64,000 nucleotides of DNA from a virus, in the IMG/VR virus record IMGVR_UViG_3300033148_006102, positions 1 to 64,000 of that record. One strand, written 5' to 3'. The notes beneath the pieces were generated by a model, which searched no databases, was not told the origin of the DNA, and saw only the letters and a list, made by a program, of their open reading frames with translations. Below, piece by piece: positions 12,358 through 63,193 of this stretch. Made by a program: the position numbers and the translations under genes. The first letter of the stretch is position 1. Every line of letters starts with the position of its first letter.

Positions 12358-13047
12358 GTGATGAAGAACCTCAGTGACGAGCTTCTGGCGGTTCGTGCGA
12401 AGACCGATAACCAGGCCAAGAACGAACTGGTACGTCGTTTCGCGCCCACAGTGACGACGCGATCGAACATGTACCGTGGTGTAGCGGTTCCCCAGCCGGC
12501 TATCTACGGTGAAGGACTTCGTTTGGTTCAATATGCAGCGGAGACATTCAAACCCACCAAGGGCGCCAAGTTCTCGACTCACCTGGAGAACCATTTACGG
12601 CGGATGTCTCGATACGTAAATACGCATAAGAACATTGCCCGCATCCCACCAAGTAAGCAAATGCGTATGGGGTTGTTCCGGTCACGTGCAGCGGTATTGC
12701 GCTTGCGGTTAAGTCGAGAACCGGCGCCAGAAGAATTGTCGGAGGATCTAGGATGGTCCGTAAAAGACGTAGTGGACCTGATGAACTTGGAGCGGCGTGA
12801 GCTGGCTAGTTCAGATCTCGTCGGGGAAATGGATACTGCGCATTTTGATCGTATGCGGGAGACAGCTGCGTTCGTGCGTTTTGAGTTGCGGCCTGAAGAG
12901 AAGGTCGTGTTTGATTATCTCTACGGATGGCACGGTCGTATGCAAACGGACAATGTACAGCAGATTGCTATGCATTCTGGCGTGAGTACGGATAAGGTGT
13001 ATCGAACCATCCGCAAGATCAAGGATCTGACACAGAGGCATCTATGA
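12358..13047 (+). CDS. Phage RNA polymerase sigma factor (sigma70 family, FliA-like layout)
   Basis: Region 2 GAKFSTHLENHLRR; region 3 REPAPEELSEDLGW; region 4 HTH VQQIAMHSGVSTDKVYR. Confidence 0.85.
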   Translation: MMKNLSDELLAVRAKTDNQAKNELVRRFAPTVTTRSNMYRGVAVPQPAIYGEGLRLVQYAAETFKPTKGAKFSTHLENHLRRMSRYVNTHKNIARIPPSKQMRMGLFRSRAAVLRLRLSREPAPEELSEDLGWSVKDVVDLMNLERRELASSDLVGEMDTAHFDRMRETAAFVRFELRPEEKVVFDYLYGWHGRMQTDNVQQIAMHSGVSTDKVYRTIRKIKDLTQRHL

Positions 13048-13958
13048 TAACGGAAGCACAAGCACGCATGTTGGCGGAAGCCATACTGGATAAACTGGGT
13101 TCACGCTTCAGGCCGCAAGCTGAAGCTACGCAAGGTCCGCGCTCTGTTGTGGCACCTGCGGTTGAGAATCCAGTGCCCCGAGCAGGTAGATCTGGTATTG
13201 GAGCACGTGATGCTGGCGGCGGGACAACTGGTAAGCGCGAGACACAATCAGCGCCAGCGGAAGGATTAACAGCTCTGGCAGCGGAACTATTTGATGCCAA
13301 GTCGACAGGTATGGCAACTGTGCATAGTGGCGGTACCGGTGGATCTACGAAAGGAACAGTATCGCCGTTTGTACGTGATTCGGCTAAGGGCGGCGCGCGT
13401 ATGGGGTTGAACTCCACGCCAGCTTCTGTGCAAGCACCGAAGAAGCCAGGTATCGTTACAGCGGCGTATGTAGGTAGTCAGGTTGGGGAACTAAAAATGC
13501 GGCTGGGTACGAAGCCCAAGAAGCCAGTTGTGATCAAGTCGACCGAGAAGAAGGCCGACATGGGCAAGGAACACGAGCGACGTTATATCCTGAATGCACT
13601 GCCGCCGTCCGCGAAGAAGGGCTCGAAAATCAAACAAGGGATTATGGTAAAGTCCCAGAAAGGATACTCAAGGATTCGCGAACAGGACGGGAAGTACACG
13701 ATGACAGCCAAATACTTCCCGCTGCACCATGAGGCAGAGACAGAGATATCGAAGGAGATCTTCGATACCTTGTGGCCGAAAGTACAAGATCAGCAGATCA
13801 AGACGCGCTACAAGATTTCAACGCCGGATAAGAATGAATGGATTGTCGACGAGTTTGAGGACGGAAAAGTTATTGCAGAAGTGGAAATGCCACGGAAGAA
13901 CGGTAAAGTGTCTATTCCTGATGATTTCGATGTGAAGACGGCATACCCGTATAACTAG
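13044..13958 (+). CDS. CYTH-domain protein with long low-complexity N-terminal extension
   Basis: EHERRY (ExExK/R), IKQG, SRIR, TMTAK, EAETEI, KTRY, WIVDEF, IAEVE motifs. Confidence 0.8.
   Translation: MITEAQARMLAEAILDKLGSRFRPQAEATQGPRSVVAPAVENPVPRAGRSGIGARDAGGGTTGKRETQSAPAEGLTALAAELFDAKSTGMATVHSGGTGGSTKGTVSPFVRDSAKGGARMGLNSTPASVQAPKKPGIVTAAYVGSQVGELKMRLGTKPKKPVVIKSTEKKADMGKEHERRYILNALPPSAKKGSKIKQGIMVKSQKGYSRIREQDGKYTMTAKYFPLHHEAETEISKEIFDTLWPKVQDQQIKTRYKISTPDKNEWIVDEFEDGKVIAEVEMPRKNGKVSIPDDFDVKTAYPYN
13636..13658 (+). repeat. 23-bp dyad site, copy 2 (intragenic)
   Basis: AAGGGATT-ATGGTAA-AGTCCCAG. Confidence 0.65.
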
Positions 13959-13965
13959 AGAGGGC

Positions 13966-14211
13966 TTGATGACCGTGGCAAAGAAGGATACTCGGCGCAC
14001 AAAGAAGCGTCGGACTATCCGAATCCCTAAGTGGCTCACCAAGGAAGAAGTAGAGGCACTGCAGGCTGAAATCATACACAATCCGCATTTGACGGATGAA
14101 GAGGCGCTGCAACGTGTGCTGTTTAATACGACACGGTTGGAAGAAATATACGCAGAGCGCATACAACCGGAGTCGGAAGATGAAGACGAAGAAGAGCCAG
14201 AGGACGAATAA
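13966..14211 (+). CDS. Small protein with basic N-terminus and acidic C-terminus
   Basis: 81 aa ORF, coupled to the next gene. Confidence 0.55.
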   Translation: MMTVAKKDTRRTKKRRTIRIPKWLTKEEVEALQAEIIHNPHLTDEEALQRVLFNTTRLEEIYAERIQPESEDEDEEEPEDE

Positions 14212-16139
14212 TGGCTGGACTTCAATCAGGGTTGGTTTGTGGTGACTTGATCAGCTTGGCTATTCAGGCTTACCAAGCACTCAAAACTAATGAGCTCTTA
14301 CGTGAAGAACGGAATGCGATCTCGGCACAAGTGGCCGAGTTTGTGTTCGATTTAAATGCTGCGCTCTCCCCTGATGCCACCACTGATACGCTTGAGGCGA
14401 TAGGCGCAGAGTTCTATCAGCCTATTGTGGAGGTACTCAATGGCTTAGAAGAAGGCATTGCGCAAGCATACGGACAGAGTTTCGCCGAGTCTCTGCAAAC
14501 CGGTGCGATAGATCCGGCGCAGGGCAACGTTGATGCCGTTCAGGCATTCTTCTCTGCATCGTCAAGTACCGTGTTGGGCGATGCTATCACAGACGATCAA
14601 CTTTCTGATCCAGACGCCACATACAGGCCGAGTGCTATTCGTACAACCTTCCGCGAGCCAGCTGAAGAGGTCGAATGTGGTGATAGTGTGGTGCAGGGCG
14701 CATTCGCCAGCGTTGCCTCAGCCGCCACAGGACTCATAAATCGTGGCGCGAATATCGCACAGATCACAACTTCTTCGTTTGGTATGATTTCGCATGCCAT
14801 ACCGAAGGTGCTGTATGGCGCCGCGGCAATGAATGTGGAGCAGATCCTTTCGTTATTTGTGGATCGTGATGTGATTTTGGACAAGATCATACGCGCCGCT
14901 GATCGACTTGCCGAAAGTGTCGGATTCATTGAAGAAGAGCACTACTTCCCCAACTTGTTCTCCCGAGCTGGCAAGACGATTAAGATCCTGCGTCGAGCAG
15001 TGAGCGCGCTTGAGCGTGTTGAGTATTTCATGCTGGAGAATGGGGTCACTGACCTGAACAGCTATGAGCAGGCAATTGAGTACGTGGAAGATGCAGAGGA
15101 AGAACTGTGTAGGCTGGAGCTCTTGCCGGATCCAACTGGCTATACCTACATGATGAAGCTTCAGACACAGATCAATTTCTTGGCTATCCTCAAGCGCGGC
15201 CTTGAGAACAAACAGGACGTTCTATTGGGTTTGCAATCACTGTTGGTTGACTTCCGCGGCGATCTGGGTTCTAACGCACGATTTGATTCGCTATTCATCG
15301 GCTTGGTGACGCAAGTTAAGTGCCGGATTGACAAGCTGATAGGTCGGTTGCGTGCCGCCCAGAAAGCAAATCGGATTGAAACATATATCACACAGCAGGC
15401 GGCCGCGTGTATTGAGCTGCAGGTACTGATTCCGTTCATGGAATTGGTAAAGCAGCCGTTGTCGCAAAAACTGTCATTATTGGATGTAGATCCGATCGGC
15501 GAAGCTGTAGCAGATATCGAAGTTGCGGCAGCCAACCTGGATATTGATTCGCCGGATTACCAGGCATTGATCAATTCAATGGACTTGTTGATTACTCAGG
15601 CACGAGTATCGCTCACCCGTTATCAGGATCCTGCGCAGGTCCAGGCATTGGCGGAACAGGTCAAGAGTCAAGCAGAAGCGATGAAGGGCCAAGGACAGGA
15701 ATTCGAGCAAGCGGTGGCTGTAGCCTTGGTAACGCTCGCAGGGGTACGTGCTGTGTTGGATGCGGTACTTGGCGGCTTTGGTGATGATCCGGCCATTAGC
15801 AGTATTGTCGAGAATATTCGAACAGGTAACTGGGAGAAGCTTTTCAGCATCGATGCAGTCACGTCTTCATTGGAAGGTGAAGTAGCGAAGCTGATGTCGG
15901 CAGCTGTAGCGTGCTGCGAAGCATCTGGCCGGTCGCAGACTTCTCAGGGCGCAATCTTTGATTTGCTCGATATTTCGGAAGAATTAGCAGACGAAGCTCG
16001 CAGAGAGGCGCTATTCCACGATACAACTACAATGTTTGGTAGTAAGTCGCATAAGGCGACTATGAACTTCAGGATACCGCTGCTCAAGCAGCAGCTCGGT
16101 AGAGCCATAAATGCGGCTCGCGCGGACTGTTTCCAGTAG
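14211..16139 (+). CDS. Hypothetical helical protein, probably structural
   Basis: 642 aa ORF in the morphogenesis cluster. Confidence 0.6.
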   Translation: MAGLQSGLVCGDLISLAIQAYQALKTNELLREERNAISAQVAEFVFDLNAALSPDATTDTLEAIGAEFYQPIVEVLNGLEEGIAQAYGQSFAESLQTGAIDPAQGNVDAVQAFFSASSSTVLGDAITDDQLSDPDATYRPSAIRTTFREPAEEVECGDSVVQGAFASVASAATGLINRGANIAQITTSSFGMISHAIPKVLYGAAAMNVEQILSLFVDRDVILDKIIRAADRLAESVGFIEEEHYFPNLFSRAGKTIKILRRAVSALERVEYFMLENGVTDLNSYEQAIEYVEDAEEELCRLELLPDPTGYTYMMKLQTQINFLAILKRGLENKQDVLLGLQSLLVDFRGDLGSNARFDSLFIGLVTQVKCRIDKLIGRLRAAQKANRIETYITQQAAACIELQVLIPFMELVKQPLSQKLSLLDVDPIGEAVADIEVAAANLDIDSPDYQALINSMDLLITQARVSLTRYQDPAQVQALAEQVKSQAEAMKGQGQEFEQAVAVALVTLAGVRAVLDAVLGGFGDDPAISSIVENIRTGNWEKLFSIDAVTSSLEGEVAKLMSAAVACCEASGRSQTSQGAIFDLLDISEELADEARREALFHDTTTMFGSKSHKATMNFRIPLLKQQLGRAINAARADCFQ

Positions 16140-16147: not shown

Positions 16148-16327
16148 ATGACACAAGCTGAAGTAGTAGGGAACTGGCTGGCAGATCAGTTCATCAAGCA
16201 GGGCATTTTGACCGAAGAATTAGCGCCATACTTCTTGGCCGGTGTGATTGATAAGACTGCATCGATGGATGTGATCGAGATTGCAGCACAATCACGCGAA
16301 GTGGATGTTAGAGTATCGGACAGCTAA
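16148..16327 (+). CDS. 59-aa protein with the F-x-x-G-x-x-D-K-T-A motif (not in ORF track)
   Basis: AGGAG RBS; MTQAEVVGNWLADQFIKQGILTEELAPYFLAGVIDKTASM...; TAATG overlap. Confidence 0.7.
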   Translation: MTQAEVVGNWLADQFIKQGILTEELAPYFLAGVIDKTASMDVIEIAAQSREVDVRVSDS

Positions 16328-16806
16328 TGGAAGATCTGCTACTACTTACACCGGACGCCACCGTGGATGATTCCGAGATTCGGGATCTTCCGGATGGCCT
16401 GGTGCAAGCGCATATCATTCGTAGCGTGTCGCCCAACCACAATACGCACATGACTTTGCTAATTGAGGGCATACAGAAGTTGGTGCAGGAAGTGTGGTTA
16501 GAGATTATCAGTGATCGAACACCGGACGGCAGCGGCTCAGGGATGTCAGCCGCAATGCAGTCAACGGCTGCTAATGCACAGTCAATTACTCAGTTGGCAC
16601 AGCAGTACACGGCAACCGTACAGGCCAATGTCATACGTAATCAAGGATTGCTTGGGCGGATACCAGCGGCAGAACAGCTGCGTTCGCTTCTTGTTCGTGA
16701 TGTTCAGTATGATGAAGTTCTGCGACAGTCAGTAATCAGTCTTGAATTGCAGTCGCGTGCGGGCATGACGGCTGTTATTACATACCAACCACCAAGGCGG
16801 CGTTGA
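16327..16806 (+). CDS. Baseplate wedge protein, gp25-like
   Basis: IEGIQKLVQEVWLEIISDRTPDGSGSG...EQLRSLLV pattern; size and context. Confidence 0.55.
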   Translation: MEDLLLLTPDATVDDSEIRDLPDGLVQAHIIRSVSPNHNTHMTLLIEGIQKLVQEVWLEIISDRTPDGSGSGMSAAMQSTAANAQSITQLAQQYTATVQANVIRNQGLLGRIPAAEQLRSLLVRDVQYDEVLRQSVISLELQSRAGMTAVITYQPPRRR

Positions 16807-18047
16807 TGGGTATCAACAGGGAAATGTTTATACAAGGCTTCATGCGGAAGCTCGCCGATATCCAGACTTCACCTGAGAAGGCGAAGGGTTTGGGGCCGTC
16901 ATATGTGTCAACGGGGATGACCAGTGGTGCCAGTCGAATTTCGCCCTTCATGGATGGGCCGGCCGAAGGTAACGACCCGCAAGACGAACAGGATGAAATC
17001 GAAGCTGGTGGCGGTGATGAAGAGCATCGTCAAGATCTTGGGGATATGCAGGAATTCCAACACGCGTTGATGCGTGGTGAGATGCCGCCAGATCCTGAAA
17101 TGGATACGGCGATTGAGGCTATCGGTGTCCGAGATGCTATGCCGTTAGATACGAATGCGGTTCGTGGTGGACGAAATACAACGGATTATCGTCATCATAC
17201 GCCGGCGGAAGTTGCTCGGCTGTTAAGCGAGAAGATTGGACAGGAATACAAGGATCCTAACGTCAGCGCAATTGACGCTTTCTTCAATGAGAGAAAAGCG
17301 CGGAAGACGCAGAACCGCAATCTGTTGAATGGTCAATATAACCACGGTCACACTGGTGAGTATAAAACTGGTGGTGTGCCGAAGGATGAGCAACTAACAC
17401 TTCCGTCCGCGCCGCACTTGACTGGAACTGAAAACGACAAAGAGAGTGAACATTCAGCTGAAGGAGCGATCCAAAAGCTGTACGGGGATCTCGAAGCATA
17501 CTTTGGTCGTACCAAGAAAGCGGAGTTTGATAAGGAAGCACTCAAGGGATTGTTAGGCGCGCTTTCGGGTGGTGTGAAAGCTCTCGGAAGAGCGGGTCGT
17601 ACGGCAACTAGAGCGGCAACAAAGAGTTTCAGGGCGCCGGCTAAGTGGGCGCCGCGGCGTGCTGCACAGACACAGACGGTTAATACAGTGAAGCCTGGGA
17701 CCGGTGGTTTGTTTCATGGACCACAATTTACTACATCGGCGTCAACAGCTGCGCGACAAGCCTACACAAATCAATCTCGTGGCCAGCGTATGCGTGCAGT
17801 ACAACAGCAGCGGGTAGCACAAGGCAAGCGTCGCATGCCGAAGCGACCGCTCATGGGTCTGCAGCCAAAACAACCTGGAATGGGAACAGAGCTCGCCAGG
17901 CTAATGGGAGCGGAACAAGCTATTGGTGCTGGTGAGAATATTATTGGTGGCTTTACTGGGCAACAAGATCAGCAAGGCACCGCGATGGGACAAGGTTTGA
18001 GAGATCTCAACAGGTTCCGTTTTTATGGGAGGGCGTTGGGTAGATGA
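16803..18047 (+). CDS. Low-complexity K-x-A motif protein (putative internal head protein)
   Basis: N-terminal MFIQGFMRKLAD; internal EKIG, KKAEFDKEAL. Confidence 0.6.
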   Translation: MMGINREMFIQGFMRKLADIQTSPEKAKGLGPSYVSTGMTSGASRISPFMDGPAEGNDPQDEQDEIEAGGGDEEHRQDLGDMQEFQHALMRGEMPPDPEMDTAIEAIGVRDAMPLDTNAVRGGRNTTDYRHHTPAEVARLLSEKIGQEYKDPNVSAIDAFFNERKARKTQNRNLLNGQYNHGHTGEYKTGGVPKDEQLTLPSAPHLTGTENDKESEHSAEGAIQKLYGDLEAYFGRTKKAEFDKEALKGLLGALSGGVKALGRAGRTATRAATKSFRAPAKWAPRRAAQTQTVNTVKPGTGGLFHGPQFTTSASTAARQAYTNQSRGQRMRAVQQQRVAQGKRRMPKRPLMGLQPKQPGMGTELARLMGAEQAIGAGENIIGGFTGQQDQQGTAMGQGLRDLNRFRFYGRALGR

Positions 18048-18328
18048 CGCAAGGATTCCCAAAAGCTGAGCTCCTGTTGAAGATCGCCGAAGCGCCGCCA
18101 ATGTACTGGGTGGCAGATCAAGAGCAGCCACAGATCGATTTTCAGAAGTTCTTTCCGCGGCCTACGGAATGGGAAATGCTGCCGTTGACGAAGAAGATTC
18201 AGATACGGATGCAGCAGGACAATGTATCGCCGGAGGACGCACAGAAACTCACGTCATCGTACCGCAAGAAGGCACCGGAGATGTTGAAGGAACCGGTACC
18301 ACAGGAGATGCTCACGGGCTACCAATAA
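18044..18328 (+). CDS. Small K-x-A motif protein
   Basis: N-terminal ELLLKIAE. Confidence 0.6.
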   Translation: MTQGFPKAELLLKIAEAPPMYWVADQEQPQIDFQKFFPRPTEWEMLPLTKKIQIRMQQDNVSPEDAQKLTSSYRKKAPEMLKEPVPQEMLTGYQ

Positions 18329-18500: not shown

Positions 18501-18607
18501 CACTAGATAAGATTTTTTGACAAATACAACTTATGTGTCCTTTTGCCTATACTGATTACGTGGCCACGTTGCGGTCAAGAGTGCATATTTTGTGATGCAA
18601 AACGCGT

Positions 18608-20695
18608 ATGACGCTTAAAAATCCTATGAGTGATTTCCCAATTGCCGACGCCCTGCTCAATAAAGAGGCAGAAGGAATGAGCGCGCTCTCTTTGGTGCGT
18701 GAAGATTTGGACGCACAGCAGTACATGCAGGCCGTTGAGAACCTTCGTCAGCGTGAATCTACAACGTTGCAGATGATGCAGCAGAGCGGCGCTGATCCGA
18801 CTATGGCTGGTGGGTATCAAGAGGAATTGGCGCGCACGCGACAGAATTACCTCACGGCTAAGGCGCTTTACGAAGCCAAGGCTATGGGGAAGGACAGTAC
18901 TGTTTCACTGAAAGACGTGAATGAACCTTCGCTAGCTGCATTGGTCAGAATGCCACCTCCCGGACTCGACACCGAGCCACAGAAGGAAGCTCCAATGACG
19001 GCCGCCCCAGGATCACCTGGCGAGGCGGCCAAAGCACAGGTAGACCAAGCGGTAGGTAGCGGAGGCGGTGATGCAGAGGGACCACCCGCTTCCGATTCTC
19101 CACCGGAGGCGTCTCACGAGGACATCGCCGCCTCTCCTTTTGCGCAAGCACTAAGCAGCCCGGACATGGGCGATGCAGATATGGCCTCAGAACCACCAGC
19201 TGAGGCACTACCACCTGAAGCTCCACCAGAAGAGATGCCGCCCGAGGGTATGACACCAGAGGAAGAACTGCCACCGGAGCAGCAATTGCTCGCCGGTAAA
19301 ATGGCAGAACTCGAATGGGATGCGGTTGATACCCTTCTCAAGAAGGTCGGTATGGTTGCGCCTACCGCACAGCTGTCGACGTTGAAGGATATGTGGCCAC
19401 AGCTCGGCCCGAATACGCGGCGCGGCGCGGCTGAGAATATCTTCAGTCAGTATCATCAGCAGGGCAGGCCTATTGAAGAGGTACCGCAAGCGCTGACTAA
19501 TTTTTTGACTCGTGTGAGTCCGATGCCACAGGCATTGTATCCCACGAAGCAGGGAGAAGATGAAATGTTCAATGGCGCACAGGCGATGCTGAAGCGTGCA
19601 AAGGATAAAATCCCTGGTGGTTTGGCTGACAAGAAAGATCCGAATTCTTTCTGTAAGCGGCAGATGCGCATGGGACGCAAAGTCGAAATGGAGCATACCG
19701 ATAGTCCTGCGGTAGCTGACGAAATTTCGCGCGACCATCTTACAGAGTTCCCAACTGATAAACTGCCAAAGGGCGAAGGTTATTATGACGAACTTGATGA
19801 GATGGAAGCGGAAATGAAAGACAAGATGAAAGGTAAAAAAGAAGCTCATGTGTTGTTGAAGCACGCGGCGAAACCTTCAGCAGGTCTTTCCAAGAAGCAG
19901 AAGTCTGACGTTGCGCGTAAAGCCCGAGCCGGCAAAGATATCGGCAAGAAGGGCAAAGGCTTTAAAGCTGTGGCAGAGAAGGCGCGTGCAAGTGGTGCGC
20001 GTGATCCTGATGCTGTTGCCGCGGCTGCGATGTGGAAGAACATCAAACGTGGGACTATAGAAGAATCCCAGATTGAGAAATTCGCGGAAGCGATGTGGGG
20101 CGAGATTTCACAGGATGATCTCGAAGCGCTATATGAGGCAGTGTTACCGGGGCAAGGAAAGACTGCGGCGGCAATCGTTTGGCCGAAAGTTGAGGCATAC
20201 CAGAAGCTCGCAAGTTCCCCAGAGCAGAAAGTTCCAAAGGACAGTGAGCCAAAGGATGGCAAGCAGCCCGCAAAGCCTGAGTCGTCAGCGCCCAAGGCTA
20301 ACTACAACAATAACCAATCCACCAATCCGTATTCCAAGCAGGATCACGGTACGAATTTGTTGCCAGCGAATGTACAGAAGCCCCAAGCTGGGCCGAAGAT
20401 TGATGAAACGCCAGTGTCGGATATCAACAAAAAGTGGGATGAGACCATCGGTGCTGCAGCTGAGGCTGTGAAGAAGGCGTACGCAGATAAGCGCGCGCAG
20501 GCTGGTACGATCGGTACGCAGGGCATGCCCACCTCGCCGGTGCAACCGCAGGGCGGAGGCGTAGGTAAAACTTTAACCTCGCTCGGATTGGGCCAGCCAG
20601 GCGGTCTGATGTTTGGTGCCAAGAACCGAGCAGGCAACATGAATGTTGGTTCAGGTATGCAAGGGATAAACGCAGCTAACTCGCCATCAGTCTAA
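18608..20695 (+). CDS. Modular K-x-A/G protein with a DUF5661-like domain (putative head cargo polyprotein)
   Basis: MGRKVEMEHTDSPAVADEISRDHLTEF...YYDEL; about 10 K-x-A/G motifs between modules. Confidence 0.65.
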   Translation: MTLKNPMSDFPIADALLNKEAEGMSALSLVREDLDAQQYMQAVENLRQRESTTLQMMQQSGADPTMAGGYQEELARTRQNYLTAKALYEAKAMGKDSTVSLKDVNEPSLAALVRMPPPGLDTEPQKEAPMTAAPGSPGEAAKAQVDQAVGSGGGDAEGPPASDSPPEASHEDIAASPFAQALSSPDMGDADMASEPPAEALPPEAPPEEMPPEGMTPEEELPPEQQLLAGKMAELEWDAVDTLLKKVGMVAPTAQLSTLKDMWPQLGPNTRRGAAENIFSQYHQQGRPIEEVPQALTNFLTRVSPMPQALYPTKQGEDEMFNGAQAMLKRAKDKIPGGLADKKDPNSFCKRQMRMGRKVEMEHTDSPAVADEISRDHLTEFPTDKLPKGEGYYDELDEMEAEMKDKMKGKKEAHVLLKHAAKPSAGLSKKQKSDVARKARAGKDIGKKGKGFKAVAEKARASGARDPDAVAAAAMWKNIKRGTIEESQIEKFAEAMWGEISQDDLEALYEAVLPGQGKTAAAIVWPKVEAYQKLASSPEQKVPKDSEPKDGKQPAKPESSAPKANYNNNQSTNPYSKQDHGTNLLPANVQKPQAGPKIDETPVSDINKKWDETIGAAAEAVKKAYADKRAQAGTIGTQGMPTSPVQPQGGGVGKTLTSLGLGQPGGLMFGAKNRAGNMNVGSGMQGINAANSPSV
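20049..20071 (+). repeat. 23-bp dyad site, copy 3 (intragenic)
   Basis: GTGGGACT-ATAGAAG-AATCCCAG. Confidence 0.7.
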
Positions 20696-44054: not shown

Positions 44055-46256
44055 ATGTTGCCACCGCATTTACAGAAGATTGCTGTACCGATCAGTCAAC
44101 GACTTCCGACATTAAGCGCGGCAAGTCAAAAGCGCTTGATGCAAGCCGGCGACGTCCCGTTTCAGCCCGTTACTCCAGAAACTACTCAGCAGGGAACCTT
44201 CCCAGGTTTTTTGCATGGTATGCGCGAAGGTATGCGTCAACAGGAGATGCCGCCAATCGTACAGCGTCTGCAGGATTCCATAAAGAAGCATTGGGATATG
44301 TACCAGCAGACGGGTAACGCGCATCATTTTGAAACAGCTAAGCAGTACGAAAACATGCTTCGATCACAGGCCGGTGCGATGGAACGAATCGCACGGGTGA
44401 TGGCCGGACCGCCAGGTGATCGGTACGAAGCGCACTGGATGCAGTACGATTCCATTAGGAAGCGGAAGAAGCGCGAGAAAAAGGAACGGGTAAAAGAAGG
44501 CGATTGGTTTCGCTACCTTGGTGAGCCAGTAGGTCTTCGCATGAAGACTGCGACGTATATTTATCCTGGCGACGAGGTGATTGTCACGGCTGTGAAGCAG
44601 GACAGTGGCGCACCGCTGTATGAATTGATGGCAGCCAAAAACGGCAAGATTGCAGCACCACAACGGATAGATACGTTGGAATCCGTGCCTAACAAAGAAG
44701 CCAAGTACGACGGCCGGCGCGGTCCGAAGATGAAGGCGCTCAAGAAGGGGCGTCGTTCATTGGATCCGGAAGAGCGCAAATTGGTGATGGACCGCGGCGC
44801 GGTATGGCAAAATGGCCCAGGTCACGAAATGTCGCCAGCTGTTTGGAAGTCAGTGGTTGATGGTAAAACATGGTACGTCTGCAACACACATAGAGCTATG
44901 AATGTATCACCTACGCTCAAGGGTGCGATTCGCAACTATGATTTCATCAAGACAACAGCTGGATTGAAGGAAGCTGGGTTTAGTCGCAAGATGCTGGGCA
45001 ACTTGGCGACCAGTATTCTTTTAGGTGGGCCAGCGGCATTGGGCGCACTGGGTACAGGTGCAGCAACAGCAGGTCTTGGTTCCGCCATGCCATTTGTTGG
45101 TGGTATCGCAGGTGGCACGCTCGGCCGCGCAATATTTGGTGATAAAGCCAACAAGATCATGCAGTGGGCGCATGCGCCGACGTTGAAGGATATCAAGAAA
45201 AAGCTCAAGAAGCAGGCTCCGCATTTGTCTCCAGAAGAGCAATTATCCTTGGCAAAACAGCATCATGCATATTTGGAGGCCATGCGAAAGGGCAAGACCG
45301 CCGCAGAAGAAAAGAAGGATAGTAAGCCATTAGCGCCGATGCGTGATATAGGCTTGGGTGTAGCCGGTGCTGGCGGCGGATTTTACGGATTGGATAGATT
45401 ATCTAGCGCCATTCTTCGTTCGGCGGGAGAAGGTGACCCAGAGCAGATGTCACCACATGATTTCATGCGACGCTACTACGGTCCTGACTACGAAGACGAC
45501 GTACGTGCAGCTCGTGCATATACGGAAGAAGGAAAGATGCCGAGCGGCGTCACGGAAATGGACTGGGATAGATTTGATCGTGAAGTACCAGTATATCGAT
45601 CATCGCCAGAAGCCATGCAGGCTATCGCCAGTGCGCCGGTACATGGACTTCGTGCGCGTACGCCATTAACCGGTGAAGATATCGTCCTTATGCGTAAGGG
45701 TTATGGGGAAAGTTCGCCGGAGTACAACACCACACTCGGAGAAGAATTGACGCATGCCGGGCAAAAAACGACGTTGCCTGGTCGTTTGGCCGAGTTCTTC
45801 CAGAATGCGATTACTGGCGGAGGGGATTTCAGCGATTATTATAATCGTTCGGAAGAACTGGGACCACGTTACGCGCATGCACGTCGTATGTATGAAATGC
45901 ACACTGGAAACGATGTGCGGTCACCTGAAGATGCCATGAAGGCCGTTCACTGGTATGCTAGTCAGCTTGAGAAGAATGAAGCTGGTGAGGAATTGCCGAG
46001 CACGTTTGAAATACGTGGTGATGAAGATCGTTGGATGCCGCGGCAGGATGCAAGAGGCGCATGGGAATGGGATGAAGATCATGCACATCCGTTTAACCAC
46101 CAAGATCTACCAACACCTACGGAGCGTGCTGAAGAAATGGCACAAGCGATGCCGGGGCTCATTTCGTACGAAGTCCCGCCTCACATGCAGGACATGCTGC
46201 CACCAGGAGCACTTACTGAAGATATGTTCGCGTCCGGTCCGGCGCATATGGTGTAG
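44055..46256 (+). CDS. Modular K-x-A polyprotein with a C-terminal zincin-like module
   Basis: Starts MLPPHLQKIA; internal MKTA, NKEA, LKEA, GKTA; C-terminal GEELTHAGQ. Confidence 0.65.
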   Translation: MLPPHLQKIAVPISQRLPTLSAASQKRLMQAGDVPFQPVTPETTQQGTFPGFLHGMREGMRQQEMPPIVQRLQDSIKKHWDMYQQTGNAHHFETAKQYENMLRSQAGAMERIARVMAGPPGDRYEAHWMQYDSIRKRKKREKKERVKEGDWFRYLGEPVGLRMKTATYIYPGDEVIVTAVKQDSGAPLYELMAAKNGKIAAPQRIDTLESVPNKEAKYDGRRGPKMKALKKGRRSLDPEERKLVMDRGAVWQNGPGHEMSPAVWKSVVDGKTWYVCNTHRAMNVSPTLKGAIRNYDFIKTTAGLKEAGFSRKMLGNLATSILLGGPAALGALGTGAATAGLGSAMPFVGGIAGGTLGRAIFGDKANKIMQWAHAPTLKDIKKKLKKQAPHLSPEEQLSLAKQHHAYLEAMRKGKTAAEEKKDSKPLAPMRDIGLGVAGAGGGFYGLDRLSSAILRSAGEGDPEQMSPHDFMRRYYGPDYEDDVRAARAYTEEGKMPSGVTEMDWDRFDREVPVYRSSPEAMQAIASAPVHGLRARTPLTGEDIVLMRKGYGESSPEYNTTLGEELTHAGQKTTLPGRLAEFFQNAITGGGDFSDYYNRSEELGPRYAHARRMYEMHTGNDVRSPEDAMKAVHWYASQLEKNEAGEELPSTFEIRGDEDRWMPRQDARGAWEWDEDHAHPFNHQDLPTPTERAEEMAQAMPGLISYEVPPHMQDMLPPGALTEDMFASGPAHMV

Positions 46257-46258: not shown

Positions 46259-46462
46259 ATGCGATATCCGCCACATTTGATTTGGCTGAAGGAAGCAAAC
46301 GACCTAGTCGCGCAGAAATTCGAGCTTGGGCCGGATGCCCTAAAAGATAAGCAGACGCCAAAGCGCATTCTCAAGCGCGATACTCATTACACTGGTGATA
46401 ACTTGCGCGGCGACAGTGCTGGACCGCCTCATATCCAGTCGACGCCCAGCGCAAGTTTGTGA
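46259..46462 (+). CDS. Small K-x-A motif protein
   Basis: MRYPPHLIWLKEAND. Confidence 0.5.
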   Translation: MRYPPHLIWLKEANDLVAQKFELGPDALKDKQTPKRILKRDTHYTGDNLRGDSAGPPHIQSTPSASL

Positions 46463-46507
46463 CTATGCTGATAGAGGACAAATGACCTGTTTTGACCAGG
46501 AGTAGCA

Positions 46508-47233
46508 ATGTACGCCAACCCATACTTCATTCAGGGTTTTGTTGATCGTCTTACGCAATTTGCTGAGCATGAGAAAACAGCGCGTGGCCCAGTAGGTGAG
46601 GGCGGCAAGTTCATGCAGATGCTTGGCGATATCATGAAGTTTGGGCCAGGGGGCGCAGTAAATGCATTAACCGCACCACTCTCAATTCCAATGAATTTGT
46701 TGACATCGGCTGCTGGATCAAGGAGCGACCTGTCCAAATATCTCGGCGATGAGAGCAAAGGGCGTGGACTCATGCATCTTCTGCTCGGCCGCGGGTCTGG
46801 ACGTGCAACAGAGCGTGCAGCACAAGAGCTTCGTGATGTCACATCGCCCGAGGAACTGGGGGCGTTACAACAGGCAGTCGGTAAGTCATCAGCGCCAGGA
46901 CGCGTAGGCGGCGCAACAGATAAGATTCTACACGCGTTACAAACGCTTCAAGCAGCAGGCTCAGGCAACGTGGTCGGATTGGCCATGAATCCATTGCGTG
47001 CATTGATATCGGCTAACAAGCCGCGCGAGCGTTTGATGGAAGGTTTGGGTGGTGATAGGCCTGGATTCTTCCGCAGGTGGTTTGATCCGGCTGGCGGACG
47101 TGCCAAAGGTCTTGGTGCGATGATTGCAGAACAGTCACCGGAATTTGCAGAAATGTTGCGTAGTCGTATGGAAGCGCAGAAGCAAACAGATGCAGGCAGC
47201 GCATTGAGAGGCATGGTGCCGGCACCGGCGTAA
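46508..47233 (+). CDS. Gly/Ala-rich protein with GF-x-x-RL and K-x-A leader
   Basis: AGGAG RBS; MYANPYFIQGFVDRLTQFAEHEKTA. Confidence 0.65.
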   Translation: MYANPYFIQGFVDRLTQFAEHEKTARGPVGEGGKFMQMLGDIMKFGPGGAVNALTAPLSIPMNLLTSAAGSRSDLSKYLGDESKGRGLMHLLLGRGSGRATERAAQELRDVTSPEELGALQQAVGKSSAPGRVGGATDKILHALQTLQAAGSGNVVGLAMNPLRALISANKPRERLMEGLGGDRPGFFRRWFDPAGGRAKGLGAMIAEQSPEFAEMLRSRMEAQKQTDAGSALRGMVPAPA

Positions 47234-47245: not shown

Positions 47246-47785
47246 ATGTACTATAACATCTATTTTGCGAAGGGCTTCATGGACAAGCTTGCGGCGCTTG
47301 CGCCGGACGAGAAGATTGCGTCTGCGGCAATGGCCCAGCTCGAGGAATTCGAAAAGCTCGCAAAGATGACGCCGTTTGGTCGTACAGCATTGACCGCGGG
47401 CCTTGGTGCGTTGGGCGGCATTGGTGGTCTGGGCGGCATCTGGGGCTCAATGGGACCATCTGCTGAAGAATCACAGATCCAACGGCTGCAGAACCAACTT
47501 GGCAATGTGCAGCAGAAGTACCAAGGACTTGAGCAAACTTCTGGTGCGCAGCAGCAGGCTCTTGCGCCATTACTGCAGAACATGTCACACGAAGATTACA
47601 TGAAGTTCATGGCGTCACAGGGTCATAAAGATCCATTTGCCGCGGAGGCAGGCGATGTTCCGGATTGGTTGGAACCTGAACTGACTCGACGTAAACAACA
47701 ATTCATGCAGGCAGGCTTGCATCAGGCGCTGCAACCAACGCCGGCGCCGGTGCCGACAGCGGCACCACCAGTAGCCGGAAAGTAG
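47246..47785 (+). CDS. Protein with GF-x-x-KL and K-x-A leader, hydrophobic Gly segment
   Basis: GAGGAG RBS; MYYNIYFAKGFMDKLA...EKIA...EKLA. Confidence 0.65.
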   Translation: MYYNIYFAKGFMDKLAALAPDEKIASAAMAQLEEFEKLAKMTPFGRTALTAGLGALGGIGGLGGIWGSMGPSAEESQIQRLQNQLGNVQQKYQGLEQTSGAQQQALAPLLQNMSHEDYMKFMASQGHKDPFAAEAGDVPDWLEPELTRRKQQFMQAGLHQALQPTPAPVPTAAPPVAGK

Positions 47786-48156: not shown

Positions 48157-48434
48157 TGCCGTCTAATCTTGTAGGACCGGGAAAGCGGTACAGTGAAAAG
48201 GCATGGGGTCAAGCCAAGGATCTCGCCGAGAAGTCATATGACGAACCAGGTCCCGGTGCGTCAGATGCGGAGAAGGCGAAATTCTACGGTACGGTTAACA
48301 AGATCACCAAGAACATTCAGCACGCGCATGGCCGCAAGGGACGCTCCGCCAAGAAGCACAAGAAAGACATCAATAAAGAGGCTTTCTGGCGTGGTTTCAT
48401 GGATCGGCTTGCGCGGTTAGATGACGAAGGATAG
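48156..48434 (+). CDS. Small basic protein with C-terminal KEA-FWRGFMDRLA motif
   Basis: TAATG overlap. Confidence 0.6.
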   Translation: MPSNLVGPGKRYSEKAWGQAKDLAEKSYDEPGPGASDAEKAKFYGTVNKITKNIQHAHGRKGRSAKKHKKDINKEAFWRGFMDRLARLDDEG

Positions 48435-49522: not shown

Positions 49523-49537
49523 GTAAGGAGTTATGAC

Positions 49538-50887: not shown

Positions 50888-50907
50888 ATAATTGAGAGTT
50901 AGGCCTT

Positions 50908-57015: not shown

Positions 57016-57917
57016 TGGCGAAGTTTACGGCCAAGCAAGTCGAAGACGCACTCGAGGAATACCATTATCGTAAGAATCCCGCCTGGGGCATCATCTTCCA
57101 GATGGGCTTTCAGATTAAAGATGACTGGTACGGCCACCAGCGTGTGGTGGATGGGATTGCTTGGCGTCGCCAGGCACACAAGTTTACGATCGACATTATC
57201 GAGATCAAAGTTAACCGATCTGACTGGCTCGCTGAGCTCAAGAGTGAGAAGTGGAAGGATACTTTTGAGATCGGCCAGCGGTTCTGGTTTGCGGCACCGC
57301 GAGGCGTCATTAAAGAAGAAGAGCTCCCGGCCGGCTGTGGGTTGTATCACGTCAATCCGGATGCGTCGAAGGTGAAGGTGCGTATTGCGCGTAACGCCAA
57401 GTCATTCACCCAGCGAGAGATCAAGACGCACACGATCCTGCGCCTCTTCATGAAGTACCAATGGAAAGTTGACGAGATTATTGAAGAGCGCGTCCAGGAA
57501 TTGTTGGGCGATAGACAGGAAGAAGTCGCCGAGCGCATACGCAAGGAACATGAGAAGGATCGCAAGATCAAGAAGTTGGAGAAGCAGCTTGAGCGTAATC
57601 CGCTGATTAATCCGCACATGTACATTTCACTTGAAGAGCTCTCGAATGCGCTAGGCGTGTTTGTGTGGAAGGACAAGATCTCGGAAGAAGAGCGGCTCAA
57701 GCGGTTGCGAGAGAAGCTATTGAAGCAGCTGAAGGTCACATCCCGTATGATGGGTTACAGCGGTCGGCAACTGCGCTCATTGATTAAAGATATGGATGAG
57801 TTGGTGAAATTTGCGGACTTTCTGCAGGATCTACGGACTCAATCGAAAGATAAGGTCATGGAGCCAGAAGAACGTGAAGATGCTGACTGGGAAGATGAGG
57901 ATGAAGACGATGGGTAA
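57012..57917 (+). CDS. MmcB-like PD-(D/E)xK nuclease with C-terminal coiled coil
   Basis: VDGI...IIEIKVNRSDW..E...KW...FWFAAPRG...LPAGCGL. Confidence 0.75.
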   Translation: MMAKFTAKQVEDALEEYHYRKNPAWGIIFQMGFQIKDDWYGHQRVVDGIAWRRQAHKFTIDIIEIKVNRSDWLAELKSEKWKDTFEIGQRFWFAAPRGVIKEEELPAGCGLYHVNPDASKVKVRIARNAKSFTQREIKTHTILRLFMKYQWKVDEIIEERVQELLGDRQEEVAERIRKEHEKDRKIKKLEKQLERNPLINPHMYISLEELSNALGVFVWKDKISEEERLKRLREKLLKQLKVTSRMMGYSGRQLRSLIKDMDELVKFADFLQDLRTQSKDKVMEPEEREDADWEDEDEDDG

Positions 57918-58620: not shown

Positions 58621-58695
58621 TAGACTGCCAGAAGCTTGGTCACAATCAATTTATACATATGCGGCGGTAGGCGTTTGGCTATCTTGACCAAGCCT

Positions 58696-62165: not shown

Positions 62166-62219
62166 ACTGATGAGTGGAGGATCGGCGTGGTCCAGCTCGC
62201 TGGTGAATGGAATAAGCTT

Positions 62220-62351: not shown

Positions 62352-62355
62352 GCTC

Positions 62356-62730
62356 ATGTACGAATTTCACGCGCTGAAAGCACTTCTGCCCAAGTTTGGC
62401 GTTGCGAATGCGGTCCCGGCTACTGGTGAGCGTCAAGGTTATACGATTGATGCATCAGACATGGAAGCGGACGAAGGCACGAACGAGCCGAGCATGCGGA
62501 CAGACGACTATATGCGTGATCCGTACATGACTCATGCGATGGAGCTACTGCAAACTGATGATCCATCAGATCCAGAAGTCCACGAATTAAGCAAAGTGTT
62601 GGCGCGACAATTCAACAAGGTACGACGTGCCGTACCTTCGTTGGATGATGTGTTTGATCGCCAGCGTACAATGAAGCCAGGCGGGGAGGTCCTCGATAAA
62701 GGAGATCTGCCGGTCGACGCCAATATGTAG
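62356..62730 (+). CDS. Acidic protein with an LL-x-K-x-G leader
   Basis: MYEFHALKALLPKFGV. Confidence 0.55.
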   Translation: MYEFHALKALLPKFGVANAVPATGERQGYTIDASDMEADEGTNEPSMRTDDYMRDPYMTHAMELLQTDDPSDPEVHELSKVLARQFNKVRRAVPSLDDVFDRQRTMKPGGEVLDKGDLPVDANM

Positions 62731-62767
62731 CTACATTGGTATCAGTGGCTGCAGGAGGAAAGGTTAT

Positions 62768-63193
62768 ATGAACGCATATTTCATGCAGGGTTTGAGGAAC
62801 ACGCTGACGAAACATGCAGAAGAACTCCCAGAGGGTATCTGCGAACAGCTGCGCAAGTTAGGCATGATCGGTGATGACGAAGCCGAAGGTGCCATGGCTG
62901 AGGACGGCATGGGCGAAGGTGGAATGCCTATGGATACGTCTCCAGGCGCCCCAGATGGCGACGAAGGCGACGCACAGCAGATTCTGCAGTTGATTGAACA
63001 ACTGCCGGAAGAGGCGCGTGTCATGTTGCTTCAGCAGCTGATGGCGCAACTGCAATCAGCAGCACCGCCAGAAGCACCATCACCAGATGGCCTTGACTAT
63101 CTCAATGAGGATGAGGGCGAAGAGGGCGCAGGCGAAGAAGAGCCCAAAGAGCCCGCCGAAGAGAAAGAAAAGGCTGCGCACCTGTACACCTAA
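62768..63193 (+). CDS. Acidic protein with F-x-x-G leader and K-x-A motifs
   Basis: MNAYFMQGLRNTLTKHAEE. Confidence 0.65.
   Translation: MNAYFMQGLRNTLTKHAEELPEGICEQLRKLGMIGDDEAEGAMAEDGMGEGGMPMDTSPGAPDGDEGDAQQILQLIEQLPEEARVMLLQQLMAQLQSAAPPEAPSPDGLDYLNEDEGEEGAGEEEPKEPAEEKEKAAHLYT

What the first reader, a model, noticed from the sequence alone, without database searches (positions are those of the whole stretch)
13044..63193. About 12 unrelated proteins share K-x-A/G motifs: candidate head-cargo targeting and processing system
Seen: ILDKLG (13044), IDKTA (16148), MRKLA/EKIG/DKEA (16803), LLKIA (18044), LNKEA/GKMA/LKKVG/TKQG/LKHA/EKFA/GKTA/QKLA (18608), LQKIA/MKTA/NKEA/LKEA/GKTA (44055), WLKEA (46259), EKTA (46508), DKLA/EKIA/EKLA (47246), NKEA (48156), LPKFG (62356), TKHA (62768). 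The motif usually ends a short helical leader or separates modules. Established: T4 and phiKZ package internal proteins with leaders removed by a prohead protease at a short consensus. Inference: K-x-A/G marks cleavage sites for this phage's protease, and these proteins are payloads released into the host.
Basis: inference. Interest (0 to 1): 0.8.

Follow-up and report, generated by a model that had tools for sequence, protein, structure and literature searches.

The report
Head-loading leader peptides ending in Lys-x-Ala
A 195-kb uncultured phage marks five, perhaps nine, otherwise unrelated proteins in this window with short leader peptides ending in Lys-x-Ala, the signal that crowds its head-assembly proteins; they are probably loaded into the capsid and trimmed as in phage T4, but no cutting or packaging has been shown and about half of the listed motifs look like chance.

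Summary
Partly right. All the listed peptides exist. As written, though, K-x-A/G is barely above chance in the 12 proteins (58 vs 46.6). K-x-G adds nothing (22 vs 21.3) and K-x-A is only mildly enriched (36 vs 25.3).

The real K-x-A signal lies outside the window, in the head-assembly module at 111-142 kb. There it occurs 100 times vs 25 expected (z=16), while sibling patterns are flat. Eight relatives, including Salmonella phage Arash, show the same pattern. This scan had already noted that code (e1-5815310).

What the window adds is a shared leader. F-x-x-G-F-x-[DR]-[KR]-L-[AT] occurs 4 times vs 0.00 expected. It is N-terminal in 16803, 46508 and 47246, C-terminal in 48156, and present as a variant in 62768. 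In relatives this word is mostly an N-terminal leader on small glycine-zipper proteins, or an internal cassette preceded by K-x-A.

Two adjacent pairs (18044/18608 and 43941/46259) share other K-x-A-ending leaders. The DUF5661 protein 18608 has conserved K-x-A at a domain border. The sites in 13044, 16148 and 62344 are unsupported.

Best reading: a T4-like capsid-targeting and processing system with a new cutting rule. Cleavage, packaging and delivery to the host remain inference.

The parts
16803..16856 (+). N-terminal leader of the 414-aa protein 16803-18047: (L)MGINREMFIQGFMRKLA|
   Evidence: Carries the word F..GF.[DR][KR]L (4 vs 0.00 expected). PSSM +0.5. The G2 gene in the same position after the 16327 homologue also starts with the word (MKLVDAYADELEKLG), although its body is unrelated.
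46508..46582 (+). N-terminal leader of the 241-aa protein 46508-47233: MYANPYFIQGFVDRLTQFAEHEKTA|
   Evidence: Carries the word. AGGAG Shine-Dalgarno 5 nt upstream. KTA site PSSM +2.7. Promoter-like motif at 46463.
47246..47362 (+). N-terminal leader of the 179-aa protein 47246-47785: MYYNIYFAKGFMDKLA|ALAPDEKIA|...EKLA|, followed by a glycine-zipper segment
   Evidence: Carries the word. Three K-x-A sites in the first 39 residues, PSSM +1.0 to +1.9. AGGAG Shine-Dalgarno. Similar to 46508 only over residues 1-46. Uncharged G/A/L-rich 20-mer at residue 48.
48375..48431 (+). C-terminal cassette of the 92-aa protein 48156-48434: KEA|FWRGFMDRLARLDDEG-stop
   Evidence: Best hit of the word HMM (iE 4.5e-5). 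The word is directly preceded by K-x-A, as in 9 of 33 instances across the clade against 3.3% at control positions.
62768..62818 (+). N-terminal leader of the 141-aa acidic protein 62768-63193: MNAYFMQGLRNTLTKHA|EE (a variant of the word)
   Evidence: Highest flank score of all window sites (+4.2). AGGAGG Shine-Dalgarno. Promoter-like motif at 62731. Lies just upstream of 63204, the homologue of Arash gp13, which is listed as a virion protein.
18044..18088 (+). N-terminal leader of the 94-aa protein 18044-18328: MTQGFPKAELLLKIA|EA
   Evidence: Shares FP-x-A-[DE]-x-LL-x-K-x-A with its neighbour 18608 (2 vs 0.00 in shuffles, a post-hoc pattern). PSSM +2.2.
18608..18670 (+). N-terminal leader of the 695-aa multi-module protein 18608-20695: ...DFPIADALLNKEA|EG
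   Evidence: Leader shared with 18044. PSSM +0.8. Promoter-like motif at 18547. The G2 homologue also has an N-terminal K-x-A (MTFVMDVTKQA|).
19592..19867 (+). DUF5661 domain of 18608 (19661-19810) with flanking K-x-A sites: KRA before it, KEA and KHA after it
   Evidence: Pfam PF18905, 29.8 bits against a cut-off of 27. In three relatives K-x-A sits in one alignment column right after the domain, and in G003 the leader word follows it directly. G2 also has K-x-A before the domain.
20078..20131 (+). Internal KFA|EAMWGEISQDDLEAL in 18608, resembling KFA|EGFMEELQS of head-module protein 141780
   Evidence: Read from the sequence. The resemblance is by eye only. PSSM -1.0.
44055..44084 (+). Possible leader MLPPHLQKIA| of the 733/771-aa protein ending at 46256 (start codon uncertain: 43941 or 44055)
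   Evidence: PPHL..K-x-A is shared with 46259 (2 vs 0.01 expected, post hoc). PSSM +1.7. No Shine-Dalgarno at either candidate start. The body has a glycine-zipper segment at residue 359.
46259..46297 (+). N-terminal leader MRYPPHLIWLKEA| of the 67-aa protein 46259-46462
   Evidence: Shares the PPHL leader with 43941/44055. PSSM +1.9.
6854..6988 (+).
   Evidence: PSSM +0.6 and +2.6. Promoter-like motif at 6841. No family match.
13044..13100 (+).
   Evidence: K-x-G is not enriched in any head module. It cannot be excluded, because K-x-G ends 13 of 33 leader words in relatives.
16148..16261 (+). 59-aa protein with FIKQG and IDKTA: weak candidate
   Evidence: KTA PSSM -0.8. The small G2 ORF in the same position (139277) has two KLA sites.
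62356..62400 (+).
   Evidence: Contains only K-x-G. No Shine-Dalgarno at either start.
46463..46472 (+). One of five window copies of a promoter-like motif CTAYRYTGRT (the others are at 6841, 18547, 20696 and 62731)
   Evidence: 8 PWM hits in the genome. All are intergenic, on the + strand and 13-79 nt upstream of a start. The set includes the heads of two virion blocks at 110,599 and 141,727.

Best explanation
The window encodes a set of proteins tagged for the phage head, working like the capsid-targeting sequences of phage T4 but with a different tag and a different cutting rule.

Shown:
1. Lys-x-Ala is a specific, clade-conserved signal concentrated in head-assembly proteins. It brackets the catalytic domain of the head-maturation-protease homologue at genome 133,275-134,819. 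K-x-small occupies one conserved position in the capsid protein's N-arm.
2. Five window proteins with unrelated bodies (16803, 46508, 47246, 48156, 62768) carry a short amphipathic word, phi-phi-x-G-F-x-D-(E/K/R)-L, that ends in or is preceded by K-x-A.
3. In related phages the same word is mostly an N-terminal leader. It sits on small proteins that continue into glycine-zipper or Pro/Ala-rich segments, often next to the protease gene. When internal, it is usually preceded directly by K-x-A.

Inferred:
- The word binds the prohead core or scaffold during assembly.
- The protease then cuts after K-x-A, freeing the mature protein and removing the tag.
- 18608 is a multi-module protein cut at its K-x-A borders.
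- 18044, 18608, 43941/44055 and 46259 use shorter sister leaders.

Whether the mature parts are ejected into the host (true cargo) or are core components that get degraded cannot be decided from sequence.
For: K-x-A code:
- In 12 head proteins K-x-A occurs 100 times vs 25 expected (z=16.4). A-x-K, KA, K-x-x-A, R-x-A, E-x-A, K-x-G and K-x-S are all at or below expectation.
- The unbiased per-protein ranking puts 9 of the top 9 at 111-142 kb.
- Eight relatives, with MCP identity 53-24%, show the same pattern. Arash is one of them. K-x-A is enriched only upstream of the MCP (z 4.3-8.1).
- MCP N-arm: K-x-(A/G/S) sits 5-6 residues before the conserved YIQxK[LI]RE block in all relatives.
- Protease: all 7 clade members hit PHROG 18299 'head maturation protease' (best E 3e-9). 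H110, S162 and D170 are invariant. K231-x-A233 is invariant at the domain end, and FEK[ILT]A is conserved near the N-terminus. The phage G gp19 homologue is annotated as a head maturation protease.

Leader word:
- 4 vs 0.00 expected in this phage, always at a protein end. The bodies are unrelated. Shine-Dalgarno sites back the start codons.
- A pattern scan found 39 stretches in viral contigs, with several per genome.
- 4 of 5 contigs found by the word alone carry this protease (E about 1e-95).
- Flanks of 33 instances: K-x-A directly upstream in 9 (control 3.3%, P=9e-7); a Met within 6 residues in 18 (control 12.7%, P=1e-8); K-x-[AG] downstream in 26.
- A leader gene lies immediately upstream of the protease gene in G2, G006, G007 and G009.

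Other support:
- Window N-terminal sites have head-like flanks (P=0.0045).
- K-x-A is conserved at the DUF5661 border, and G003 has two unambiguous internal cassettes.
- One promoter-like motif heads five window units and two virion blocks.
- T4 precedent: 10-19-residue propeptides target unrelated proteins to the core and are removed by gp21 (PMC9026906).
Against: - No experimental evidence of cleavage or of virion location exists for any of these proteins. The Arash paper reports no processing, its supplement has no peptide-level data, and it lists 116 of 252 proteins as 'virion', so that list is not selective.
- None of the 12 window proteins has a detectable Arash homologue.
- In the window the bulk K-x-A excess is small (z=2.4), and N-terminal K-x-A frequency is at chance.
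- This phage's word (GF-x-D-[KR]-L-A) matches only the first half of the relatives' word (GF-x-D-E-L-x-K-x-A). An HMM built from outside instances does not score it significantly (iE 0.96), so equivalence is an inference.
- At leader ends in relatives K-x-G is as common as K-x-A (13 each), while K-x-G is not enriched in head modules. The final K-x-small could therefore be partly a helix cap and not a cut site.
- Co-occurrence of the word with the protease may only reflect clade membership.
- Several 'internal' cassettes could be mis-called starts, for example MKKTAFLQGF.
- The protease fold was not confirmed: the AF2 model has pLDDT 43, hhalign against T4 gp21 gives E=0.34, and there is no Pfam hit.
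- The leader patterns of the 18044/18608 and 43941/46259 pairs were defined after seeing them.
Confidence: 0.5

Rival explanations
1. The leader word is an interaction or membrane-anchoring helix for some partner other than the prohead, such as the cell membrane, a chaperone or a modifying enzyme. On this reading its terminal K-x-A/G is a helix-capping feature and not a cut site. The window proteins would be small membrane-active or regulatory proteins, not head contents.
For: - Leader proteins here and in relatives continue into glycine-zipper or hydrophobic segments typical of membrane proteins.
- At leader ends K-x-G equals K-x-A (13 vs 13), although K-x-G is not part of the head-module code.
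- Co-occurrence with the protease could be mere clade membership.
- An earlier case in this scan (e1-127136) found a shared leader to be tied to a radical-SAM enzyme and not to capsid sorting.
Against: - Internal copies of the word are directly preceded by K-x-A far more often than chance (9/33 vs 3.3%).
- The word occurs in head-module proteins beside the protease gene in four relatives, and in K-x-A-rich 141780 here.
- Window leader sites have head-like flanks.
- One promoter-like motif is shared with virion blocks.
Confidence: 0.25
2. The window motifs are chance. K-x-A/G is a three-residue pattern with one free position in Lys- and Ala-rich, partly helical proteins. The reader picked ORFs that happened to contain it. 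Only the head module, outside the window, carries a real signal, and the shared leaders reflect local gene duplication with no function in processing.
For: - K-x-[AG]: 58 vs 46.6. K-x-G: 22 vs 21.3.
- No window protein is individually enriched.
- N-terminal K-x-A is at chance, the same as in the control arm.
- Most internal sites score negative.
- Two of the three leader types link adjacent genes (18044/18608 and 43941/46259), and 46508/47246 are also neighbours.
Against: - The word also occurs in the non-adjacent 16803 and 62768, and at the C-terminus of 48156, which tandem duplication of N-termini does not explain.
- The same word heads unrelated proteins in many other genomes.
- K-x-A is conserved at the DUF5661 border in three relatives.
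- Window N-terminal sites differ from control N-terminal sites in their flanks (P=0.0045).
Confidence: 0.15
3. The tagged proteins are targeted to the prohead and processed, but they are disposable core or scaffold components (like T4 gp22, gp67 and gp68). They would be degraded and expelled before DNA packaging, not delivered to the host as payloads.
For: - Many are low-complexity, Gly/Ala/Gln/Pro-rich and predicted disordered. 18608 has pLDDT 0.49 in the Atlas model, and composition is given.
- They carry several K-x-A sites, like the scaffold-like head proteins.
- In relatives the leader genes flank the protease gene, where T4 keeps genes 67, 68 and 22.
- No enzyme domain was found in any leader protein.
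Against: - They are scattered over 60 kb away from the head module, unlike core genes.
- Glycine-zipper segments would suit membrane-inserting ejection proteins.
- 43941 (771 aa) has a large, apparently globular C-terminal part.
- Nothing here discriminates firmly between the two readings.
Confidence: 0.3

Closest known systems
Phage T4 capsid targeting sequences (CTS) on internal proteins IPI, IPII, IPIII and Alt, removed by prohead protease gp21 (Mullaney and Black 1996; reviewed in PMC9026906)
   Same: Both use a short (10-19 residue) N-terminal propeptide shared by otherwise unrelated proteins. The propeptide ends in the consensus site that also studs the scaffold and core proteins. Small core genes flank the protease gene.
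   Different: - The inferred site is Lys-x-Ala, with a small residue at P1. T4's site is (L/I)-x-Glu.
- The tag is a different amphipathic word (phi-phi-x-G-F-x-D-E-L-x-K-x-A/G).
- The tag also occurs internally and at a C-terminus, as a cassette preceded by K-x-A.
- The tagged genes are scattered over 60 kb.
- Nothing has been shown experimentally.
Proteolytic maturation in giant phages phiKZ, 201phi2-1 and SPN3US (gp175 / gp245; site A/S/G-x-E; PMC10052503, PMC5694885)
   Same: Many head and ejection proteins have N-terminal propeptides that are removed, and often cut several times, by one prohead protease at a three-residue motif. The protease cuts itself too. The virions carry RNA polymerase.
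   Different: The motif is different and there is no detectable sequence relationship. Propeptides there are often 100-250 residues and do not share one leader word.
Herpesvirus assemblin and related prohead serine proteases cutting after Ala ((V/L)-x-A|S); this comparison rests on my own knowledge and was not checked here
   Same: Both have a small residue (Ala) at P1 and a free P2, and both release scaffold from capsid.
   Different: P3 here is an invariant Lys. No fold or sequence match was obtained here.
Lys-x-Ala head code of this same genome, noted earlier in this scan (e1-5815310)
   Same: It is the same motif, the same protease and the same head-module enrichment. I re-measured these independently.
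   Different: That note concerns 111-142 kb. This report adds four things: the leader word, its spread in other phages, the K-x-A|word cassette, and which window proteins do or do not qualify.

Membership tests
T4-type capsid-targeting / internal-protein system | One short terminal propeptide shared by proteins with unrelated bodies | tested here: met
   F..GF.[DR][KR]L occurs 4 vs 0.00 expected. The only similarity among the 12 proteins is residues 1-46 of 46508 vs 47246.
T4-type capsid-targeting / internal-protein system | The propeptide ends at the motif that is over-represented in scaffold and core proteins (the protease consensus) | tested here: met
   The leaders of 16803, 47246 and 62768 end in K-x-A, and 46508 has K-x-A 9 residues further on. 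K-x-A occurs 100 vs 25 expected in head proteins. That K-x-A is the cut site is itself an inference.
T4-type capsid-targeting / internal-protein system | The propeptide is removed by the prohead protease | not testable with these tools
   This needs N-terminal or semi-specific proteomics, or an in-vitro cleavage assay.
T4-type capsid-targeting / internal-protein system | The proteins are present in proheads or virions and are delivered with the DNA | not testable with these tools
   None of the 12 has a homologue in Arash, the only relative with a virion proteome. Only neighbours do: 12358 matches gp10 and 63204 matches gp13.
Phage head-maturation (prohead) serine protease | Match to a curated or clustered protease family profile | tested here: met
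   PHROG 18299 'head maturation protease' is hit by 7 of 7 clade members, best E 3.1e-9. No Pfam family is hit even at E<=5.
Phage head-maturation (prohead) serine protease | Invariant His and Ser (plus an acidic residue) at catalytic-type spacing | tested here: met
   H110, S162 (in WSMG) and D170 are invariant in 7 sequences at 26-38% identity. Their catalytic role is inferred.
Phage head-maturation (prohead) serine protease | Assemblin / gp21-type fold | tested here: inconclusive
   The AF2 model has pLDDT 43 and is unusable. hhalign against T4 gp21 gives E=0.34, with only the NRN..FPE block aligned. There is no PDB sequence hit.
Phage head-maturation (prohead) serine protease | The gene lies between the terminase/portal genes and the major capsid gene, among scaffold-like genes | tested here: met
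   TerL is at 126,917, the protease at 133,275 and the MCP at 137,518, with small acidic K-x-A-rich ORFs in between.
Pfam DUF5661 (PF18905), for 18608 | Score above Pfam's gathering threshold | tested here: met
   29.8 bits against a cut-off of 27, residues 352-401. Homologous domains are present in G2, G003 and G004.

The most novel reading that the evidence does not exclude
A whole clade of large uncultured phages, of which Salmonella phage Arash is the cultured outlier, uses a portable and excisable 13-17-residue cassette, K-x-A | phi-phi-x-G-F-x-D-E-L-x-K-x-A/G |. The cassette would act as a modular capsid-loading tag. It can sit at an N-terminus, inside a polyprotein or at a C-terminus. 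It would be read by a head protease with a Lys-x-Ala rule that I did not find in the papers consulted, and it would let the phage load and then release many unrelated membrane-active proteins for delivery into the host.
Probability: 0.3. Interest if true: 0.7.

Novelty: new variant of a known kind. Interest (0 to 1): 0.55.

Why it matters
If the reading holds, it extends the T4 principle of 'targeting tag plus protease site' to a deep, almost wholly uncharacterised phage lineage, with a different cutting rule and a different tag. It would assign a role to a set of proteins that have no homologues or domains. It would also explain why one short helix word recurs at the start of dozens of unrelated phage proteins in metagenomes.

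It would offer a practical handle as well: a short peptide that might load chosen proteins into the capsids of Arash-like phages. Because Arash is cultured, the K-x-A rule can be tested directly.

The correction matters too. The loose motif K-x-A/G does not mark substrates by itself.

Tried and rejected
- Megablast of two 8-kb window pieces against phage records: no match.
- Pfam and PHROGs on the named proteins: only DUF5661 in 18608. Nine further window and genome proteins gave nothing useful. Ten leader proteins of relatives gave nothing.
- The search for related loci with 46508: no relatives.
- The search for homologous proteins with the 47246 leader region and with a relative's 111-aa leader protein: only self in both cases.
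- Protein atlas for 43941 and 18608: no usable lead.
- Genome-wide unbiased three-residue motif discovery: K-x-A does not stand out at whole-proteome level. Cys motifs and helix patterns dominate.
- Test of N-terminal K-x-A frequency: not significant.
- AF2 fold of the protease from 7 sequences: pLDDT 43, so I did not use it for fold search.
- hhalign of the protease profile against T4 gp21: not significant.
- PDB sequence search with the protease: nothing.
- Leader HMM built only from outside instances: over-fitted to the search pattern, and matches only the first half of this phage's leaders.
- 8-mer search for promoters: nothing. The promoter-like motif found afterwards is not conserved in relative G2.
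- Arash paper and supplements: no protease, cleavage or peptide-level data.
- Phage G multi-omics preprint: gp19 is called a head maturation protease, but no cleavage rule is given.
- First count of 'internal cassettes' revised downward after seeing that some begin at a likely start Met.


Full report
**What the window is.** The window is the first 64 kb of a complete 195,108-bp virus record with direct terminal repeats. Almost all window genes are on the + strand. No close relative is among deposited phages. The nearest cultured relatives are distant: Salmonella phage Arash (181 kb) and Vibrio phages D69, D148 and D181. Capsid identity to them is about 30% and protease identity about 35-42%. 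Only 15 proteins have Arash homologues. These include the portal, a 2375-aa RNA-polymerase-like protein, the terminase, the protease, the MCP, the sigma-like 12358-13047, and 63204-65198, which matches Arash gp13.

**Checking the observation.**
- In the 12 proteins K-x-[AG] occurs 58 times against 46.6 in composition-preserving shuffles (z=2.1). K-x-A is 36 vs 25.3 (z=2.4) and K-x-G is 22 vs 21.3.
- No window protein is individually enriched. The nine most enriched proteins of the genome all lie at 111-142 kb.
- A K-x-A in the first 25 residues is found in 11 window proteins against 8.0 expected (P=0.17). The replication arm used as control gives 11 vs 7.8.
- So the loose motif is close to chance in the window.

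**Where the motif is real.** The head module lies outside the window. It comprises TerL at 126,917-128,725, a protease-like gene at 133,275-134,819, the MCP at 137,518-138,648, and small acidic ORFs in between.
- In 12 head proteins K-x-A occurs 100 times against 25 expected (z=16.4). A-x-K, KA, K-x-x-A, K-x-x-x-A, R-x-A, E-x-A, K-x-G and K-x-S are all at or below expectation. The signal is therefore a specific sequence word and not a by-product of helix composition.
- The consensus from 99 sites is K-[LIVTQ]-A-[EAG]-[ED].
- The pattern recurs in Arash (gp220 10 vs 3.0, gp223 8 vs 3.0, gp225 7 vs 1.8).
- It also recurs in seven uncultured relatives with MCP identity 53-24%. Enrichment is always upstream of the MCP (z 4.3-8.1) and is absent downstream in six of them. 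K-x-G is neutral or depleted.
- In the MCP, K-x-(A/G/S) sits 5-6 residues before the conserved YIQxK[LI]RE block in every relative. This phage has EKLS|ASLG; relatives have KLA, KLG, KTA, KVA and KEA.
- The protease homologue matches PHROG 18299 'head maturation protease' in 7 of 7 clade members. H110, S162 and D170 are invariant. K231-x-A233 is invariant exactly at the end of the conserved domain, and FEK[ILT]A is conserved near the N-terminus.
- The protease's fold could not be confirmed.
I reached these numbers independently.
- The motifs described in the papers I consulted are (L/I)-x-E in T4 and A/S/G-x-E in the phiKZ group. I found no report of K-x-A.

**What the window adds: a shared leader.** Four window proteins carry F-x-x-G-F-x-[DR]-[KR]-L-[AT], against 0.00 expected.
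- The word is at the extreme N-terminus of 16803, 46508 and 47246.
- It is at the extreme C-terminus of 48156, where it follows KEA.
- 62768 starts with a variant, MNAYFMQGLRNTLTKHA.
- Strong Shine-Dalgarno sites back the starts of 46508, 47246 and 62768.
- The only BLAST similarity among the 12 proteins is residues 1-46 of 46508 vs 47246. The bodies are unrelated and the leaders are shared.
- Two adjacent pairs share other leaders: FP-x-A-[DE]-x-LL-x-K-x-A in 18044/18608 and PPHL..K-x-A in 43941(44055)/46259. I defined these two patterns after seeing them.
Most internal sites score negative, as do 10 of 13 un-named N-terminal sites.
- Window N-terminal sites differ from control N-terminal sites (median +0.5 vs -2.2 and -3.4; P=0.0045).

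**The leader in other phages.** Relatives carry the word as phi-phi-x-G-F-x-D-E-L-x-K-x-[AG].
- A scan of viral contigs for a back-translation of F-L-x-G-F-x-D-E-L-x-K gave 39 stretches. About two dozen are real, and there are up to three or four per genome. Most are N-terminal, such as MNHFLNGFSDELEKV..., MNPFLAGFADELIKTG and MDSFLTGFCDELLKVA.
- Four of five contigs chosen only by the word carry this protease family (E about 1e-95). This may simply reflect clade membership.
- In G2, G006, G007 and G009 a leader gene lies directly upstream of the protease gene. In G010, as here, others lie tens of kb away.
- The leader proteins are small. They continue into glycine-zipper or Pro/Ala-rich segments, like 47246, 46508 and 43941 here. 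None has a known domain.
- I defined 33 word instances without regard to their flanks. K-x-A lies directly upstream in 9 (control 3.3%, P=9e-7). A Met lies within six residues in 18 (control 12.7%, P=1e-8). Only 6 have neither. K-x-A or K-x-G follows in 26, 13 of each.
- Some apparent internal copies may begin at a start codon. G003 has two unambiguous internal cassettes, LEKRA|AFFYGLFSELEKIG| and KKKA|SFIHGLVDEIEKSA|.

**Protein 18608.** Its DUF5661 domain has homologues in G2, G003 and G004. In all three, K-x-A sits in one alignment column just after the domain. This phage has KEA and KHA 6-13 residues further on. G2 and this phage also have K-x-A just before the domain.

**Co-regulation.** A promoter-like motif, CTAYRYTGRT, contains a -10-like TAYRYT. 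It has 8 PWM hits in the genome, all intergenic, on the + strand and 13-79 nt upstream of a start.
- Five are in the window, before 6854, 18608, 20726, 46508 and 62768.
- One is before 68293.
- Two are before virion blocks: 110678, followed by the K-x-A-rich 111598 and the portal, and 141780, a K-x-A-rich head protein that carries the word.
- Only the 110,599 site was found independently of the training set.
- The motif is not conserved in G2.

**Interpretation.** The best reading is a T4-like targeting-and-processing system (PMC9026906) with a new rule and a new tag.
- I rate five window proteins as well supported: 16803, 46508, 47246, 48156 and 62768.
- Four are plausible: 18044, 18608, 43941/44055 and 46259.
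- Three are unsupported: 13044, 16148 and 62344.
- K-x-G is not part of the bulk code. It does replace K-x-A at two conserved positions in relatives, the MCP N-arm and the leader end, so single K-x-G sites cannot be excluded.

**Limits.** The weak points are:
- No experimental evidence exists.
- The local word matches the clade word only in its first half.
- The K-x-small at leader ends might be a helix cap.
- Membrane-type segments allow a non-capsid role.
- Sequence cannot tell ejected cargo from disposable core.

The scan holds analogous leader systems in other phages, and one case where a shared leader proved to be tied to another enzyme.

Noticed in passing
window 6841, 18547, 20696, 46463, 62731 (also genome 68247, 110599, 141727): Promoter-like motif CTAYRYTGRT, containing a -10-like TAYRYT. 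It has 8 PWM hits, all intergenic, on the + strand and 13-79 nt upstream of a start codon. It heads five window units and two virion blocks. It is not conserved in relative G2.
   Followed up: partly
window 12358-13047: Sigma-70 region-3-like protein (Pfam PF04539, E 1.7e-7). It is homologous to Arash gp10, which the Arash paper lists among virion-detected proteins, and to G2_162127.
   Followed up: partly
window 6854-7657: 267-aa orphan protein with two well-scoring N-terminal K-x-A sites (KEA at residue 14, KVA at residue 43) and the promoter-like motif.
   Followed up: partly
window 48440-55467: Two paralogous proteins like head decoration or fibre proteins (360 and 449 aa; PHROG 2647 and 27782) and a 1519-aa tail-fibre-like protein. 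They lie directly downstream of the leader-gene cluster at 43.9-48.4 kb. 48440 begins MARERIYGLEGFRDR, a weak echo of the leader word.
   Followed up: no
genome 115576-122703 and window 14211-16139: K-x-A is under-represented in the 2375-aa RNA-polymerase-like protein (8 vs 15 expected). Its Arash homologue gp206 is the protein most often detected in virions. K-x-A is absent from the 642-aa protein 14211 (0 vs 2.6). This may be avoidance of the cut site in packaged proteins that must stay whole.
   Followed up: no
whole proteome: The strongest three-residue patterns genome-wide are CP.C (11 vs 0.6) and C.KC (11 vs 0.8). This suggests a family of small zinc-ribbon-like proteins. I did not look at them.
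   Followed up: no
L043 (G003:C1:120482-123727), minus strand: A 676-codon open frame in a relative. It joins a DUF5661 domain to several further modules, separated by K-x-A | leader-word | K-x-A/G junctions. It looks like a cargo polyprotein.
   Followed up: partly
window 16327-16806 and G2 138846-139250: A conserved 134-159-aa protein of unknown function. In both phages a small K-x-A-bearing ORF precedes it and a leader-word protein follows it, forming a conserved three-gene mini-module.
   Followed up: partly
window 58636-60768 and 57012-57917: A DNA helicase (PHROG 2488, E 4e-65) and a DNA-repair-like protein lie between the fibre-like genes and the 62-63 kb leader genes. The window therefore mixes replication genes and virion-type genes.
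   Followed up: no
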